Virus record (IMG/VR): IMGVR_UViG_2693429700_000015
Direction: 5' to 3' (one strand)
Origin: a virus
Lineage: Duplodnaviria > Heunggongvirae > Uroviricota > Caudoviricetes
DNA length: 4,612 bases
Positions 1,228 to 4,533 of the stretch are shown here, in pieces. The notes beneath the pieces are model-generated. The model did no database searches. It worked only from the letters and a program-made list of their open reading frames with translations, and was not told the origin of the DNA. Made by a program: the position numbers and the translations under genes. How positions within the stretch are numbered: the first letter of the stretch is position 1; every line of letters begins with the position of its first letter.

Positions 1228-1364
1228 AACGTAATGGTTTAAACATGTCGCTAAAGTGGTTGTAAGTTAGCCTCCGAAGGATTGCTGATAGCTTTGTTAT
1301 AGTATTAAATGACATTTGACATAGTTGGATACTTAGCTGCGGCTATCAAGATGGAGGTATGTTT

Positions 1365-1808
1365 ATGCTCACTTGTTTTGATGTCGCCGACTACTTCTTG
1401 GCGCATTGCGATGAAGAAAGTGGCGACATTATCTCTAACCTAAAAATTCAGAAGTTGACGTATTATGCCCAAGGGTTTTCTCTGGTTCTTCTGGGTAAGC
1501 CGCTATTTAATGAGAAAATTGAAGCCTGGATGCATGGGCCAGTAGTTCCTGAATTGTATCGTAAATATAGGGACTGTGGTAACGGCGCTTTACCTGCGCC
1601 AGAAAACTTTGACGCTAAAAAATTCAGTGAAGATGAAATTGAATTGCTGGATGAGGTGTATAAAGTTTATGGTCAGTTTTCTGCCTGGAAACTGCGCAAT
1701 ATGACTCACGAAGAGCAGCCATGGAAAGATGCTTACATTGAGGGTGCGGTTAGCCAAGAAATCACACTTGATTCTATGAAAGGTTTTTTCAAAACGTTAA
1801 TTAACTGA
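1365..1808 (+). CDS. Panacea-domain (DUF4065; GepA/SocA-like) protein, putative antitoxin of a PanA/PanT-type module
   Basis: The segment KIQKLTYYAQGFSLVLLGKPLFNEKIEAWMHGPVVPELY matches the conserved core of DUF4065/Panacea proteins as I remember it (KLQKL-Y-AQ ... PLF-E-AW-HGPV). Start chosen at ATG 1365 (GGAGG at 1353-1357, 7-nt spacer) rather than the track ATG at 1359, which is only 1 nt after the Shine-Dalgarno. A TTGACA hexamer lies at 1316-1321 inside a tandem TGACAT-T-TGACAT, about 45 bp upstream. Confidence 0.75.
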   Translation: MLTCFDVADYFLAHCDEESGDIISNLKIQKLTYYAQGFSLVLLGKPLFNEKIEAWMHGPVVPELYRKYRDCGNGALPAPENFDAKKFSEDEIELLDEVYKVYGQFSAWKLRNMTHEEQPWKDAYIEGAVSQEITLDSMKGFFKTLIN

Positions 1809-1813
1809 CGTGT

Positions 1814-2236
1814 ATGTCTAGAGTTAAGGGAAGAATAAAACAGAGGGATAAAGAGAGCTCTGCTACTGTTGGCCTCTCTATCCATCACGAATCTCATGAT
1901 GTAGACAAAAGTCCGCCTGTATTTTCTCTTAGATACCTACAAAAGGGGTATTGCCTAGATTGCTGCCAAAAGCATGAAAAGGCAGCATTTGCAGATAGGC
2001 TGTTCAGGTTAAGTCAGATGTCATGGGATGAGATACGAAAATCTGATAAACACGGGCTTGGGACGGAAAAAATTGCCAGAAACGCGATAAAGGCTCCGAT
2101 TCCTAAGCATGTTACTCAAGATGTGGATTTCATTGCGTTCAGATTTTGCTCTAAGGCACCTATGGTTGGTTATAAGATAGGAGCCACTTTTTATGTCTTA
2201 TGGCTCGACAGGGAGTTCAAGCTATACAAGCACTAA
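1814..2236 (+). CDS. hypothetical protein; candidate toxin partner of the upstream Panacea-domain protein (family not recognised)
   Basis: 140-aa ORF starting 5 nt after the Panacea gene stop (operon arrangement) and ending at a strong terminator. No Shine-Dalgarno at the 1814 ATG, so translation would need coupling; an alternative internal start at ATG 2018 (AGGT 8 nt upstream) would give 73 aa. Basic N-terminus, Cys cluster (CLDCCQKH), C-terminus GYKIGATFYVLWLDREFKLYKH. No family recognised from memory. Confidence 0.5.
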   Translation: MSRVKGRIKQRDKESSATVGLSIHHESHDVDKSPPVFSLRYLQKGYCLDCCQKHEKAAFADRLFRLSQMSWDEIRKSDKHGLGTEKIARNAIKAPIPKHVTQDVDFIAFRFCSKAPMVGYKIGATFYVLWLDREFKLYKH

Positions 2237-2237
2237 T

Positions 2238-2263
2238 AAAACCCACCGTCAGGTGGGTTTTTT
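2238..2263. terminator. bidirectional rho-independent terminator shared by convergent genes
   Basis: AAAACCCACC (2238-2247), loop GTCA, GGTGGGTTTT (2252-2261), T-run to 2263: a GC-rich 7-10 bp stem flanked by an A-run upstream and T-run downstream. It sits between the stop of the + strand ORF (2236) and the stop of the - strand ORF (2280). Confidence 0.75.
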
Positions 2264-2279
2264 GTTGGAGATAAAATGG

Positions 2280-2483
2280 TTAACCAAATCGATCCTTAAA
2301 GCGTCTATCGCTGTTGCGTCTCTCCATTTTACTGTTGCAGTACGGACAAAGATGCTGTTTCTTTCCATCGATAGTCCATGTGAAGTACTTTTTCTTAAAT
2401 CCAGCACCACAGATATCGCAACTTCTTGGTTTAAACATGCTGGCTATGAAGACAAGAACAACAAATCCTATGATCCATTCCAT
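2280..2483 (-). CDS. small membrane-anchored zinc-ribbon protein (67 aa), function unknown
   Basis: N-terminal hydrophobic helix (EWIIGFVVLVFIASMF) followed by CxxC...(17 residues)...CxxC (CDICGAG...CPYCNS) and a basic tail. Ends at the bidirectional terminator. Shine-Dalgarno is weak (ACAGG about 10 nt upstream). Confidence 0.5.
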   Translation of the reverse strand: MEWIIGFVVLVFIASMFKPRSCDICGAGFKKKYFTWTIDGKKQHLCPYCNSKMERRNSDRRFKDRFG

Positions 2484-2624
2484 ATCATGTACCTGTTTTA
2501 ACTTTATTTTTTGTTTTTTAGGGATTAATCAGAAACTTTATCTTGCGATTAAGCAAAGCTACTAGCTAACAAAAGAGTGCGTATACAATCAATCGTTTCA
2601 CATCAACCTCAACAAGGAGAAATC

Positions 2625-2810
2625 ATGACCATAGAAGAACGCCTGAACAACATTGAGTTGAACCAAACCCTGCTTGACCAGCGACTTTCAGATCTTGAGC
2701 TTAAAGATCTTGATGCGCAAATATCAGAAGCAGAAGCCAAGCTCTCCAGCCTAAACCACCGCAAGAAGCAAATCCGCAACAGAATTACTCAGGGACGCGG
2801 AAGCTGTTGA
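2625..2810 (+). CDS. small coiled-coil-like hypothetical protein (61 aa)
   Basis: ATG at 2625 preceded by a strong Shine-Dalgarno AAGGAG (2614-2619, 5-nt spacer). Sequence MTIEERLNNIELNQTLLDQRLSDLELKDLDAQISEAEAKLSSLNHRKKQIRNRI has heptad-like Leu/Ile spacing. A TACAAT -10-like hexamer lies at 2584-2589. The track ORF start at 2577 (GTG) lacks a Shine-Dalgarno and would contain this promoter-like element. Confidence 0.5.
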   Translation: MTIEERLNNIELNQTLLDQRLSDLELKDLDAQISEAEAKLSSLNHRKKQIRNRITQGRGSC

Positions 2811-2994
2811 GGTGGGATGCTAGGTCTCTATCGTTAAAATCAAGGCTGCTAATCATTTCATTGTAAATGGCGTTTTTATCTTCCATTGGCAGTCTTGAGT
2901 AAACCAGACACAGAGCATATTTCAGGGAGTTTAGCTCTTTCTCTAGCTCTTCCTTGCTTGACGTTTTTGACTTAATAAACTGTTTTTTATTCAT
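2785..2994 (-). CDS. hypothetical protein (69 aa) translationally coupled to mnt
   Basis: Its start ATG (2994-2992) overlaps the mnt stop in an ATGA arrangement, with AAGGA about 6 nt upstream inside the mnt 3' end. Hydrophilic, no transmembrane segment, family not recognised. Its 3' end overlaps the convergent 2625..2810 ORF by 26 nt. Confidence 0.5.
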   Translation of the reverse strand: MNKKQFIKSKTSSKEELEKELNSLKYALCLVYSRLPMEDKNAIYNEMISSLDFNDRDLASHLNSFRVPE

Positions 2995-3239
2995 TTTGCA
3001 TCCTTACCATACATGGTTTTCAGTGTTTCAAGCAGCGCCTCTTTGAATTTGTCAGCTTCTTGCTGAGCAAATGACTCAACTGACTTTGGCGACCTATCTT
3101 CATCAATCGCGGCTTGCAAAATCATGACGATCTCGGAGTTAACAGAGCGACCATTTTTTGATGCTCTGACAGCAAGAGCCTCGCGCAAAGATTCAGGGAT
3201 TCTTACCGTAGTTGGAGAAATTGACACACCCTTTGCCAT
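2991..3239 (-). CDS. mnt: Mnt-like ribbon-helix-helix repressor (immI region)
   Basis: 82 aa. TTVRIPESLREALAVRASKNGRSVNSEIVMILQAAI is an Arc/MetJ-type RHH motif (beta-strand, G-R-S-x-N-S-E helix). Length and C-terminal helix (FKEALLETLKTMYGK) parallel phage P22 Mnt (83 aa, C-terminus ...VFDTLKDLYKK) as I recall it. Transcribed divergently from the arc-ant pair, as in P22 immI. Confidence 0.8.
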   Translation of the reverse strand: MAKGVSISPTTVRIPESLREALAVRASKNGRSVNSEIVMILQAAIDEDRSPKSVESFAQQEADKFKEALLETLKTMYGKDAK

Positions 3240-3259
3240 AGCACACCTTTGGTATTCAA

Positions 3260-3271
3260 TTTGATATCAAA
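3260..3271. promoter_or_regulatory. 12-bp perfect palindrome TTTGATATCAAA in the mnt/arc divergent control region; candidate operator
   Basis: Perfect dyad symmetry, located 21 bp upstream of the mnt start codon in the 114-bp region separating two RHH repressor genes. RHH dimers and tetramers bind symmetric operators. Confidence 0.4.
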
Positions 3272-3288
3272 GTGTATGCAAAAGAAAT

Positions 3289-3317
3289 TTGACTAGATAT
3301 ACTCACTTTGCTATCTT
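3289..3317 (+). promoter_or_regulatory. putative sigma70 promoter for arc-ant (Pant-like)
   Basis: TTGACT (3289-3294), 17-bp spacer, TATCTT (3312-3317), about 35 bp upstream of the arc Shine-Dalgarno GGAGGG (3344-3349). The spacer contains CTAGATATACTCAC, a possible repressor binding region. Hexamer match is moderate. Confidence 0.35.
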
Positions 3318-3353
3318 TTGTATTCGAAAAGAGTCGTTTGTGCGGAGGGTAAC

Positions 3354-3506
3354 ATGGAGAAAGAAATAAGTAAGATTTTGGTAAGGATGCCGCAGTCGTT
3401 AAAGGACGCTATCGGTAGCAGGGCAAAGGAAGAATGCCGGTCGTTTAACTCGGAAGTGATTAAGCGGTTGATAGACAGCCTGAAGAGAGAGGGGATAACG
3501 GTGTGA
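3354..3506 (+). CDS. arc: Arc-like ribbon-helix-helix repressor
   Basis: 50 aa. ILVRMPQSLKDAIGSRAKEECRSFNSEVIKRLIDSLKREG aligns motif-for-motif with P22 Arc (FNLRWPREVLDLVRKVAEENGRSVNSEIYQRVMESFKKEG) as I recall it. Start at ATG 3354 with GGAGGG 4 nt upstream; the track TTG start at 3318 is rejected. Confidence 0.8.
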   Translation: MEKEISKILVRMPQSLKDAIGSRAKEECRSFNSEVIKRLIDSLKREGITV

Positions 3507-3738
3507 TTCGCTTGGATGCAGTAGTCAAAGAGATTGCGATTACCATTTTAAGACCAAATTTTGTTCATGGCGAATCATTTGGCACGAACGAAAAATTGAG
3601 AAGAGAAAGAGTATTCAGTGGCAAGCGCACATTTTCAGAAGTGATGCTTGATGCGGCAAAGAAATCAAAACAGTGAAGCCCCAACTGCGGTAACAGTCAG
3701 GGCTTCGGTTGTCGGTAAATTCGTGGAGAAAAACCAAC

Positions 3739-4533
3739 ATGAATAGTATAGCAATTTTAGAAGCAGTGAACACCTCTTACGTACCATTCAACGGTCAGCA
3801 AATTATCACCGCCATGGCTGCCGGAGTTGCATATGTTGCGATGAAGCCAATCGTTGAAAACCTTGGAATGAGCTGGTCAACGCAGCAAACAAAACTCATG
3901 AAGCAGATTAGCAAATTCAACTGTGTTCATATGAACATGGTTGCCGCTGATGGGAAGCTTCGTAAGCTACTCTGCCTTCCTTTGAAGAAGTTAAATGGAT
4001 GGCTGTTCAGCATCAACCCCGAGAAAGTTCGAGCTGACATCCGCGATAAACTGATTCAGTACCAGGAAGAATGCTTTACTGTACTGCATGACTACTGGAC
4101 AAAGGGAAAGGCAGAAAATGCACGTAAGAAAACATCTGTTGATGACAGGACTCCGCTTCGTGATGCTGTAAATATGCTAGTCAGCAAAAAGCATCTAATG
4201 TACCCAGAAGCTTATGCAATGATTCATCAGCGTTTCAATGTGGAAAGTATTGAAGAGCTTGATGCATCTCAGATACCGCAAGCCGTAGAGTACATCCACA
4301 GGGTAGTGCTTGAAGGTGAGTTCATCGGCAAACAAGAGAAGAAGCCCAACGGGCTTTCCGCAAAAGAAACAGACATCCTTGTATGGCTGTGGGATTATGC
4401 CAACCGCTCACAGGCATTATTCCGCGAACTGTATCCGGCGCTGAAACAAATTCAATCGAACTATTCCGGCAGATGTCATGACTGCGGTTATGAGTTCTCC
4501 CGTATTATCTGTATTAGCTCAGACCTGATCTGA
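3739..4533 (+). CDS. ant: phage antirepressor (P22 Ant-like, N-terminal P22_AR_N-type domain)
   Basis: [21 protein letters not shown]...[12 protein letters not shown]...[27 protein letters not shown]...[16 protein letters not shown] matches the conserved N-terminal domain of P22-type antirepressors as I remember it. It lies downstream of arc in the same orientation, as in immI. Start taken as ATG 3739 (GGAG at 3725-3728) rather than the track TTG at 3709. Confidence 0.75.

What the first reader, a model, noticed from the sequence alone, without database searches (positions are those of the whole stretch)
2625..2994. Convergent genes with 26-nt 3' overlap (2625..2810 + versus 2994..2785 -)
Both ORFs have good translation signals (AAGGAG for the + ORF; ATGA coupling plus AAGGA for the - ORF) yet their 3' ends overlap by 26 nt on opposite strands with no terminator between them. 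If both are expressed, their transcripts are necessarily antisense at the 3' ends, allowing mutual transcriptional interference or RNA-RNA regulation. Alternatively one ORF is not a real gene.
Basis: seen in the sequence. Interest (0 to 1): 0.5.

Follow-up and report, generated by a model that had tools for sequence, protein, structure and literature searches.

The report
Two real, conserved, tail-overlapping phage genes
Two small genes of unknown function in the immunity region of a P22-like prophage face each other and share their last 26 bases; both are genuine, conserved genes, and nothing here shows that the overlap itself acts as a regulatory device.

Summary
orf61 (2625..2810, +) and orf69 (2785..2994, -) converge and share 26 nt, and no hairpin or terminator lies between them. 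Both are real genes. Each stays intact in five lineages that are 75-80% identical in DNA. Each shows purifying selection in its own frame only (pN/pS 0.20 and 0.14).

Remote homologues (orf69 about 40-50% identical, orf61 32%) in Providencia, Proteus and Xenorhabdus prophages form the same convergent pair, overlapping by 10 or 23 nt.

The window is the "ant moron" (immI region) of a P22-like prophage. orf69 is the distal, ATGA-coupled gene of the mnt operon. orf61 lies on the late-operon strand. In 16 of 64 viral contigs it starts 13 nt after an intrinsic terminator, so it probably depends on read-through, most likely antiterminated late transcription.

The antisense relation therefore very likely spans whole genes, not only 26 nt, and probably separates prophage from late expression. 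That is inference; I found no direct expression data for these two genes.

Inside the overlap the orf69 frame is conserved and the orf61 tail drifts. orf61 also occurs without orf69 (26 of 64 loci); orf69 was not seen without orf61, except two possibly chimeric 520-nt contigs.

Verdict: real, conserved, function unknown, modest interest.

The parts
2625..2810 (+). orf61: a 61-aa protein predicted to be one long alpha-helix (coiled-coil type). It belongs to PHROG 7586, function unknown, and lies on the late-operon strand.
   Evidence: ORF list. PHROG hit E 3e-44. AlphaFold2 helix 3-59, pLDDT 93.8. pN/pS 0.20, the best of six frames. 42 database homologues. Remote 60-aa homologues at 32% identity with an invariant MTxEERL N-terminus.
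2613..2618 (+). Shine-Dalgarno AAGGAG of orf61. It also marks the left edge of the orf61 mosaic cassette.
   Evidence: Sequence. Homology to Emek and Kapi1 starts at 2614/2615. Upstream contexts diverge just before the SD in 64 loci.
2785..2994 (-). orf69: a 69-aa protein predicted to have three helices. It belongs to PHROG 16466, function unknown, and is the distal gene of the mnt operon.
   Evidence: ORF list. PHROG hit E 5e-51. AlphaFold2 helices 14-33, 37-50 and 55-64, pLDDT 76. pN/pS 0.14, the best of six frames. Remote homologues P0091, P0092 and P0093.
2785..2810 (.). The 26-nt dual-coding overlap. It encodes the last 8 codons plus stop of orf61 and the last 7 codons plus stop of orf69, together with two bases of Asn63.
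   Evidence: Sequence. Within it the orf69 frame shows 16 synonymous and 10 non-synonymous differences (pN/pS 0.16). The orf61 frame shows 0 synonymous and 26 non-synonymous. 27% of columns vary, against 42% and 34% in the non-overlapping parts.
2991..3239 (-). Mnt-type ribbon-helix-helix repressor gene. Its TGA overlaps the orf69 ATG (ATGA at 2994-2991). Its last codons supply the AAGGA ribosome-binding site of orf69 (3005-3001).
   Evidence: Pfam Arc 9.6e-11 and FitA-like RHH 2e-8. Homologues in related loci hit PF11423 Repressor_Mnt. Sequence.
2238..2266 (.). Bidirectional intrinsic terminator hairpin (CCCACC-GTCA-GGTGGG, with a T-run on the + strand and UUUUAUU on the - strand). It is the first terminator a minus-strand transcript meets after orf69.
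   Evidence: Fold z = -3.5 (+) and -2.4 (-). The equivalent hairpin is annotated as a rho-independent terminator in Emek. In 16 of 64 IMG/VR loci it ends 13 nt before the orf61 ATG.
2280..2483 (-). orf67: a small protein with an N-terminal hydrophobic segment and a CxxC...CxxC zinc-ribbon motif. It lies between orf61 and the terminator on the minus strand and is absent from many related loci.
   Evidence: ORF list. Only weak zinc-ribbon Pfam hits. The same left context occurs in 12 of 64 loci.
3289..3317 (+). Pant-like promoter (TTGACT-17-TATCTT) for arc and ant. The divergent Pmnt and the operator palindrome (3247-3284) lie next to it.
   Evidence: Promoter scan. Palindrome. By analogy with the annotated P22 Pant, Pmnt and operators.
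3672..3738 (-). sar antisense RNA gene of the immI region. This is context: it shows the region already uses a dedicated antisense RNA elsewhere.
   Evidence: Rfam RF00262, 87.1 bits (gathering score 43), E 3.9e-18.

Best explanation
orf61 and orf69 are two real small genes of the variable 'ant moron' (immI region) that P22-like phages carry between the ejection-protein gene 16 and the tailspike gene.

**orf69.** It is the last gene of the prophage-type mnt operon on the minus strand. It is translationally coupled to mnt through ATGA and an AAGGA inside the end of mnt.

**orf61.** It lies on the late-operon strand and behaves as a self-contained mosaic cassette running from its Shine-Dalgarno sequence to its stop codon. 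It usually has no room for a promoter of its own. It starts either 13 nt after an intrinsic terminator or 27-44 nt from a divergent start codon. I infer that it is transcribed mainly by polymerase reading through from upstream, most likely Q/gp23-antiterminated late transcription on its way to the tailspike gene.

**Consequence.** No terminator separates the genes. A minus-strand transcript from Pmnt would therefore run on through the whole antisense of orf61 to the bidirectional terminator at 2238-2266. In other phages it would run into sieA or another prophage gene. Late transcripts would run antisense through orf69 and mnt. The antisense relation is thus gene-wide and probably separates prophage-state from late-lytic expression.

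**The 26-nt overlap.** It is an old, tolerated compaction. It has the same register in the Escherichia/Salmonella and Proteus/Xenorhabdus clades. It is paid for by the tail of orf61, which varies in sequence and has low model confidence, while orf69 keeps its conserved C-terminus.

**Shown:** the geometry, the coding status of both genes, the conservation, the mosaic boundaries and the absence of a terminator.
**Inferred:** which promoters drive each gene, when each is expressed, and any antisense effect. The protein functions are unknown.
For: **Context**
- The window holds Mnt, Arc and Ant domains and a sar RNA.
- Related loci show gp16 ... mnt-arc-ant-tailspike.

**Both genes are coding**
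- Both are intact in five lineages.
- pN/pS is 0.20 for orf61 and 0.14 for orf69, each lowest in its own frame.
- Both match PHROG families.

**Deep conservation of the convergent pair**
- Providencia: 10-nt overlap. Proteus and Xenorhabdus: 23-nt overlap.
- Alignments A3 and A4 run full length; the only gaps are 1-3 residues near the ends.

**mnt-orf69 coupling**
- The ATGA overlap with mnt, or with a second ribbon-helix-helix gene, recurs in nearly all loci.

**orf61 cassette boundaries**
- Several left contexts (terminator-adjacent, two divergent-gene types, orf67) combine almost freely with four right contexts.
- Right-hand junctions fall at the orf61 stop codon.

**Little room for a promoter**
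- The terminator T-run ends 13 nt before the orf61 ATG in 16 of 64 loci and in Emek.
- Only 27 nt separate the sieA and orf61 start codons.
- The scan found no usable sigma-70 match upstream of orf61 in the window.

**Junction and terminator**
- There is no terminator or stable structure at the junction.
- A strong bidirectional hairpin lies at 2238-2266.

**Evolution inside the overlap**
- The orf69 frame is under selection and the orf61 tail drifts.
- The orf61 tail has pLDDT 54-82.

**Literature**
[quoted passage not shown] - In the P22-like prophage BTP1, STnc6030, a long prophage-expressed RNA antisense to the adjoining injection and tailspike genes, excludes superinfection (PMC7067206).
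Against: - There are no direct transcription or translation data for these two genes.
- The only stranded RNA-seq of a phage carrying this exact pair is the Kapi1 lysogen study (PMC12922286). It did not detect mnt (Kapi1_063) above threshold and does not list 061 or 062 among the undetected genes. That does not fit simple co-transcription of orf69 with mnt in lysogens. Those cultures also showed lytic-gene expression from spontaneous induction.
- Pmnt was not found by the consensus scan in the window.
- A promoter for orf61 could lie inside the upstream gene or match the consensus poorly. One weak candidate exists inside sieA in L105.
- In every locus examined (about 50, three deep clades) orf69 had orf61 beside it; the only exceptions are two 520-nt contigs that may be chimeras. 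This could reflect a functional dependence that the compaction view ignores.
- In this window an IS1203-like element interrupts gene 16 upstream, so late read-through may not occur in this particular prophage.
Confidence: 0.6

Rival explanations
1. One reading: the 26-nt 3' overlap is itself a regulatory device. The two mRNAs pair at their 3' ends, or their polymerases collide there, giving mutual RNA-RNA control or transcriptional interference specific to this pair.
For: - The genes converge with no terminator between them.
- A 3' overlap is kept in all three deep clades.
- The overlap has fewer variable columns than the flanks, 27% against 34-42%.
- Precedents exist in the same phage group: sar/ant in this window, STnc6030 in BTP1, and lambda OOP against the 3' end of cII (both from PMC7067206).
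Against: - The overlap length and register differ between clades (10, 23, 26 nt), and Providencia is out of register with the others.
- Double coding alone can account for the lower variability of the overlap: substitutions in it follow the orf69 codon pattern (16 synonymous, 10 non-synonymous).
- The junction folds no better than shuffled sequence.
- orf61 keeps its full sequence next to three unrelated convergent genes, without overlap.
- With no terminator, the transcripts would overlap by hundreds of bases, so the 26 nt are not a distinct unit.
Confidence: 0.1
2. orf61 and orf69 are functional partners, a two-protein module. For example, a prophage-expressed factor and its late-expressed antagonist, or two subunits of one complex. 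Selection for joint inheritance would then keep them together, with the shared 3' end acting as a genetic lock.
For: - In about 50 contexts across Escherichia, Salmonella, Providencia, Proteus and Xenorhabdus, orf69-like genes had an orf61-like gene beside them, although the flanking genes vary widely.
- In Xenorhabdus the pair persists although mnt, arc and ant are absent.
- This happens in a region described as having very high gene flux, ten moron types in sixteen genomes (PMC2629481).
Against: - orf61 occurs without orf69 in 26 of 64 IMG/VR loci and in loci L115-L118, so it does not need orf69.
- The physical overlap alone explains why recombination rarely separates orf69 from orf61.
- No interaction test was possible, because no multimer prediction tool was available.
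- Neither protein has a family or fold match that suggests a function.
Confidence: 0.2
3. One of the two ORFs is not a real gene and is merely the open antisense frame of the other or of a neighbouring element.
For: - Both proteins are short and have no known domain.
- The antisense frame that shares wobble positions with orf69 also shows a low pN/pS of 0.195.
- Gene callers skipped orf61 in several loci.
Against: - The two ORFs share only 26 nt, so neither can be the shadow of the other.
- Each is intact in every lineage examined.
- Each has the lowest pN/pS of the six frames over its non-overlapping part.
- The low-scoring antisense frame of orf69 is closed by stop codons.
- Remote homologues keep their length and key residues at 32-50% identity.
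- Both have a Shine-Dalgarno sequence, and both are PHROG families.
Confidence: 0.02

Closest known systems
P22 immI region or 'ant moron' (sieA - hkcC - orf59a - mnt - arc - sar - ant, between gene 16 and gene 9)
   Same: The position and architecture match.
- mnt is followed on the minus strand by a small gene of unknown function.
- That gene converges on a plus-strand gene.
- The plus-strand gene starts 27 nt from the sieA start codon.
- arc, sar and ant follow on the plus strand.
- Late-promoter polymerase is reported to read through the moron to the tailspike gene (PMC2629481).
   Different: - P22 orf59a is not homologous to orf69 (E 0.59).
- P22 has no orf61 or orf69 homologue. A 125-aa ORF with an HExxH motif occupies the orf61 slot.
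- P22 places an intrinsic 'mnt terminator' between the convergent genes. Here there is none, and the genes overlap by 26 nt.
Cis-antisense RNAs of lambdoid phages: P22 sar (against ant), lambda OOP (against the 3' end of cII) and BTP1 STnc6030 (antisense to the injection and tailspike genes)
   Same: Transcripts from opposite strands overlap within a phage regulatory or moron region. STnc6030 lies next to the same genome slot and is prophage-expressed (PMC7067206). sar is present in this very window.
   Different: Those are dedicated non-coding RNAs with their own promoter and terminator. Here both strands encode proteins, and no promoter or terminator is associated with the overlap. No antisense effect has been shown.
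Phage Emek orf61/orf69 and phage Kapi1 genes 061/062
   Same: These are the same two genes at 97-100% protein identity, with the same 26-nt overlap. Both are already annotated as hypothetical proteins.
   Different: - The left flank differs. In Emek a terminator lies directly upstream of orf61. In Kapi1 a divergent signal-peptide gene does.
- Emek has a second ribbon-helix-helix gene between mnt and orf69.
- I found no description of the pair in the papers I searched (four searches).

Membership tests
P22-type immI region / ant moron | An Mnt-type ribbon-helix-helix repressor divergent from arc-ant | tested here: met
   Mnt-like 2991..3239 (-): Pfam Arc 9.6e-11. Arc 3354..3506 (+): 5.5e-12. 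Ant 3739..4533: P22_AR_N 2e-45 and P22_AR_C 3e-20.
P22-type immI region / ant moron | A sar antisense RNA upstream of ant | tested here: met
   Rfam RF00262, 87.1 bits against a gathering score of 43, at 3672..3738 (-).
P22-type immI region / ant moron | Location between the gene-16 ejection-protein gene and the tailspike gene of a P22-like phage | tested here: met
   Related loci show PF26808 Phage_P22_gp16 on one side and PF09008 Head_binding tailspike on the other. Emek and Kapi1 are classified as Lederbergvirus. Pfam gave no hit to the window's own gene-16 remnant at 145-573, but the matching E. coli record annotates it as 'DNA transfer protein'.
Dedicated cis-antisense RNA regulator (sar, OOP or STnc6030 type) | Its own promoter and terminator defining a discrete antisense transcript | tested here: not met
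   No promoter-like or terminator-like site at or near 2785-2810. The junction folds no better than shuffles. Rfam finds nothing there.
Dedicated cis-antisense RNA regulator (sar, OOP or STnc6030 type) | Both strands transcribed, with a measurable effect on the target | not testable with these tools
   The only indirect data come from the Kapi1 lysogen RNA-seq text, where mnt was not detected and 061/062 are not discussed. No supplementary tables are held.
Type II toxin-antitoxin pair (ribbon-helix-helix antitoxin plus a downstream ATGA-coupled toxin), considered for mnt-orf69 | The downstream gene belongs to a toxin family or has a toxin fold | tested here: not met
   orf69 has no Pfam, PADLOC or BFVD match. 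The model is a small three-helix protein.
Type II toxin-antitoxin pair (ribbon-helix-helix antitoxin plus a downstream ATGA-coupled toxin), considered for mnt-orf69 | Obligate co-occurrence of the two partners | tested here: not met
   Xenorhabdus loci L124 and L125 carry orf69-like genes without any mnt. Many loci carry mnt without orf69.
XhlA haemolysin family (the name NCBI gives to one orf61 homologue) | A match to PF10779 above the gathering score | tested here: not met
   E 0.056 and 14.1 bits against a cut-off of 34.7. The model is a single soluble helix.
PHROG 7586 (orf61) and PHROG 16466 (orf69) | A full-length profile match | tested here: met
   E 3.3e-44 over 1-61 of 61 and E 4.6e-51 over 1-69 of 69. 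Both families are of unknown function.

The most novel reading that the evidence does not exclude
orf61 and orf69 form a conserved two-gene switch. The prophage-state minus-strand mRNA (mnt-orf69) would carry the complete antisense of orf61 as its 3' untranslated or intercistronic part, keeping orf61 silent. The late-expressed coiled-coil protein orf61 would in turn counteract the prophage-expressed orf69, for example an exclusion or defence factor that must be switched off during lytic growth. The shared 3' end would act as a lock that keeps the two genes together in a region where everything else is shuffled.
Probability: 0.12. Interest if true: 0.55.

Novelty: new member of a known kind. 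Interest (0 to 1): 0.27.

Why it matters
The result settles the annotation question: both small ORFs are real genes and should stay annotated.

It also places them in the P22-type ant moron. orf69 is a cargo gene of the mnt operon. orf61 is a cassette on the late strand that probably depends on terminator read-through.

The one finding that goes beyond routine is the pair's persistence. It stays a convergent, tail-overlapping unit from Escherichia to Xenorhabdus, inside one of the most shuffled regions of these phages.

If that reflects function rather than physical linkage, it would be a compact example of prophage-versus-lytic gene antagonism built from two very small proteins. Stranded RNA-seq data that already exist for a phage carrying the identical pair (Kapi1) could test this.

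Otherwise it is an ordinary case of gene packing in a phage genome.

Tried and rejected
1. **Rho-dependent termination after orf69.** I expected the antisense of orf61 to be C-rich. It is not: C/G is 0.56-0.83 over 2805-2533 on the minus RNA.
2. **Recent overprinting.** I first thought the last 8 residues of orf69 were an accidental read-on into the orf61 cassette, because all mosaic junctions fall at the orf61 stop. A spurious ORF in the gp38 context also ends ...FRVPE. Remote homologues end ...LNVYR and ...LINSYRI, which align with ...LNSFRVPE. The C-terminus is therefore ancestral, and only 2-3 residues are extra.
3. **Homology of orf69 to P22 orf59a.** None.
4. **mnt-orf69 as a toxin-antitoxin pair.** Rejected; see the membership test.
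5. **Function by structure.** orf61 is a featureless single helix. A Foldseek search of BFVD with orf69 gave no hit below E = 1.5. Pfam and PADLOC hits for orf61 are weak coiled-coil noise.
6. **Promoter scans.** Scans of the window and of L105 and L190 found no more sites than shuffled sequence, and none conserved in position.
7. **Broader sampling.**
   - The metagenome scan and the profile scan of viral contigs returned only close relatives.
   - The genome scan gave three loci.
   - A scan with the Providencia orf61-like protein gave one locus.
8. **Kapi1 RNA-seq supplementary tables.** Not held.
9. **Terminator scan.** The scan missed the obvious hairpin at 2238-2266. Folding confirmed the hairpin.

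Full report
**1. The observation**

Reading the window and listing its ORFs confirms every coordinate.
- orf61 runs from ATG 2625 to TGA 2808-2810 on the + strand, with AAGGAG at 2613-2618.
- orf69 runs from ATG 2994 to TAA 2787-2785 on the - strand.
- The two share 2785..2810, 26 nt.
- The orf69 ATG overlaps the TGA of the upstream minus-strand gene (ATGA at 2994-2991). The last codons of that gene contain AAGGA six bases before the ATG.
- No terminator-like site was found in 2150-3400. Folding 2740-2860 gave z-scores of -1.2 (+) and +0.5 (-), no better than shuffled sequence.

**2. What the region is**

The window is the immI region, or 'ant moron', of a P22-like (Lederbergvirus-type) prophage.
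- Pfam identifies the gene upstream of orf69 as an Arc/Mnt-type ribbon-helix-helix protein.
- Pfam also identifies 3354..3506 as Arc and 3739..4533 as the P22 antirepressor.
- Rfam finds the sar antisense RNA at 3672..3738 (-), 87 bits.
- Pfam also finds a Panacea-domain antitoxin at 1359..1808, part of the adjacent accessory genes.
- Related loci place the block between the gene-16 ejection-protein gene and the tailspike gene.
- Phages Emek and Kapi1 carry the same two ORFs at 97-100% identity, annotated as hypothetical proteins with the same overlap.
- The first ~147 nt of the window are the end of an IS1203-type IS3-family element inserted in gene 16. This prophage is therefore probably defective.

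**3. Both ORFs are genes**

Protein searches found 42 relatives of orf61 and 46 of orf69.

I fetched the contigs of the most divergent orf69 relatives. They gave four further lineages (L105/106, L107, L108/109, L111/112) at 75-80% DNA identity. In all of them both ORFs are intact, mnt-ATGA-orf69 is kept, and the overlap is again 26 nt.

Nei-Gojobori counts over the non-overlapping parts gave these results:

| ORF | Own frame pN/pS | Other five frames |
|---|---|---|
| orf61 | 0.20 | 0.45-3.7 |
| orf69 | 0.14 | 0.195-2.7 |

The 0.195 value belongs to the wobble-sharing antisense frame of orf69. That frame is closed by stop codons.

Both proteins are PHROG families of unknown function, 7586 and 16466. 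AlphaFold2 predicts orf61 as one long helix (residues 3-59, pLDDT 94). It predicts orf69 as three helices with a low-confidence tail (pLDDT 76). No fold or family match suggests a function.

**4. The pair is old**

An exhaustive HMMER search with orf69 found 63-64-aa relatives at 40-50% identity (P0091, P0092). A profile search added Proteus and Xenorhabdus members.

Their contigs show the same arrangement. The orf69-like gene usually follows mnt with an ATGA overlap. It converges on a 60-aa ORF that is a remote homologue of orf61: 32% identity, an invariant MTxEERL start, and only a one-residue gap near the C-terminus.

| Clade | 3' overlap |
|---|---|
| Escherichia/Salmonella (this window) | 26 nt |
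| Proteus, Xenorhabdus | 23 nt |
| Providencia | 10 nt |

I compared the junction sequences by hand. The Escherichia/Salmonella and Proteus/Xenorhabdus overlaps are in the same register. The orf61 stop has moved by one codon and the orf69 stop by two. The Providencia overlap is in a different register.

In two Xenorhabdus species the pair is present although mnt, arc and ant are absent.

The remote homologues end ...LNVYR and ...LINSYRI, which align with ...LNSFRVPE. The overlapped C-terminus of orf69 is therefore ancestral, not a recent read-on.

**5. orf61 is an independent mosaic cassette**

- In 64 IMG/VR loci with orf61, 38 carry orf69 next to it. The remaining 26 have other neighbours.
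- In those 26, orf61 faces one of three unrelated convergent genes. These are a 105-aa secreted protein (9-nt gap), an Sf6-gp38-like protein (21 nt) and a 178-aa ClpP-like protein (77 nt).
- In these loci sequence similarity ends at the orf61 stop codon.
- On the left, similarity ends at the Shine-Dalgarno sequence. The left contexts fall into four main types that combine almost freely with the four right contexts.
- More divergent orf61 genes also occur without orf69 (L115-L118).
- I did not find orf69 without orf61. The only exceptions are two 520-nt contigs whose protein is an in-frame fusion and may be chimeric.

**6. Transcription logic (inferred)**

*orf61 has little room for its own promoter.*
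- In 16 of the 64 loci, and in Emek, the T-run of an intrinsic terminator ends 13 nt before the orf61 ATG.
- In other contexts the start codon of a divergent prophage gene such as sieA lies only 27-44 nt away.
- The scan found no usable sigma-70 match upstream in the window.
- orf61 therefore probably depends on polymerase arriving from upstream and passing terminators.

*The literature fits read-through from the late promoter.* Late-promoter, Q/gp23-modified polymerase is reported to transcribe through the ant moron to reach the tailspike gene (PMC2629481). [quoted passage not shown]

*The minus strand has no stop near the junction.* Nothing stops a transcript from Pmnt after orf69. The next terminator is the bidirectional hairpin at 2238-2266 (z -3.5 and -2.4), beyond orf61 and the small orf67. 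P22 instead places its mnt terminator directly between the convergent genes.

*Consequence.* If both strands are used, the complementarity covers all of orf61 on one side and orf69 plus mnt on the other, not only 26 nt. The likely result is separation of prophage-state from late-lytic expression.

*Precedents.* The P22-like prophage BTP1 makes STnc6030, a long prophage-expressed RNA antisense to the adjoining injection and tailspike genes (PMC7067206). sar is a dedicated antisense RNA in this same window.

*Caveat.* Stranded RNA-seq of the Kapi1 lysogen did not detect mnt and does not discuss genes 061 and 062 (PMC12922286).

**7. The overlap itself**

- Among the five lineages, 27% of overlap columns vary, against 42% in orf61-only and 34% in orf69-only sequence.
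- In the orf69 frame the differences are 16 synonymous and 10 non-synonymous (pN/pS 0.16, as in the rest of the gene).
- In the orf61 frame all 26 differences are non-synonymous.
- The orf61 tail reads QGRGSC, QGCGSC, RGCESC, QGRENC or RGCERC. The orf69 tail stays NSFR(V/I)PE in four of the five lineages; the fifth has NTFRIPE.
- Double coding is enough to explain the reduced variation. The cost falls on the low-confidence end of orf61.
- The junction has no RNA structure, promoter or terminator.

**8. Verdict**

What remains is two real small genes of unknown function on opposite strands of the P22-type ant moron. They are packed tail to tail without a terminator, and the arrangement has been kept since before the Escherichia-Proteus-Xenorhabdus phage lineages diverged.

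The layout belongs to a known kind: moron genes set against the late operon, and convergent overlap in compact phage genomes. The genes are already annotated in public records.

The long co-inheritance of the pair is the only feature that might hide something new. Physical linkage through the shared 3' end explains it adequately, but a functional partnership is not excluded.

Noticed in passing
window 1..~147 (minus-strand ATG at 87): The left end of the window is the end of an IS3-family, IS1203/IS629-type insertion sequence inserted into the gene-16-like DNA-transfer gene. This prophage is therefore probably defective, and late-operon read-through from upstream may be blocked. This segment is probably why the whole-window search matched 6,553 E. 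coli records; it matched 2,904 plasmid records when searched alone. The 29-aa N-terminus hits HTH_Tnp_1.
   Followed up: partly
window 3672..3738 (-) and 3503..3676 (+): A clear sar antisense RNA (Rfam RF00262, 87 bits) lies just upstream of ant. Unlike in P22, the arc-sar gap is filled by a 57-aa ORF (PHROG 17642, unknown function) whose GTG start overlaps the arc stop (GTGA).
   Followed up: no
window 1359..1808 (+) and 1814..2236 (+): A Panacea/SocA-domain antitoxin gene is followed 5 nt later by a 140-aa gene (PHROG 8366; weak PADLOC NsnC match, 1.8e-7). It is a candidate toxin-antitoxin or defence pair, ending at the bidirectional terminator.
   Followed up: no
window 2238..2266, and IMG/VR loci such as L014, L024 and L033 at about 2960-3000: The same hairpin terminator (CCCACC-GTCA-GGTGGG-T6) recurs in at least eight different upstream contexts, directly abutting the orf61 Shine-Dalgarno sequence (13 nt from T-run to ATG). 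In the window a ~345-nt segment carrying orf67 (2280..2483, -; hydrophobic N-terminus plus CxxC...CxxC) separates them.
   Followed up: partly
L113 (P22 NC_002371) 3850..4227 (+): The P22 reference record has no annotation for a 125-aa plus-strand ORF with an HExxH motif between sieA and orf59a. This is presumably the hkcC gene mentioned in PMC2629481. Its in-frame ATG (the fifth codon of the listed ORF) lies 27 nt from the sieA start codon, the same slot that orf61 occupies here. Its 3' end overlaps the annotated mnt terminator.
   Followed up: partly
proteins P0072 and P0073 (ENA contigs of about 520 nt): The N-terminal 62-63 residues of orf69 are fused in frame to the C-terminus (TTYYNMSSEKK) of the 105-aa secreted protein that neighbours orf61 in other phages. 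This is either a natural deletion that removes orf61 or an assembly chimera.
   Followed up: no
window 2596..2620 (-): The minus strand upstream of orf61 reads TTGAGGTTGATGTGA, which resembles the ribosome-binding site and start region of sieA in related loci (GGGAGGTTGGGATGAGTGA in L118). It may be a remnant of a deleted sieA-type gene.
   Followed up: no
Kapi1 (MT813197) genes 061-063, from the literature: Stranded RNA-seq of the Kapi1 lysogen reports that mnt (Kapi1_063) was not detected above threshold in either medium, which surprised the authors. [quoted passage not shown]
   Followed up: partly
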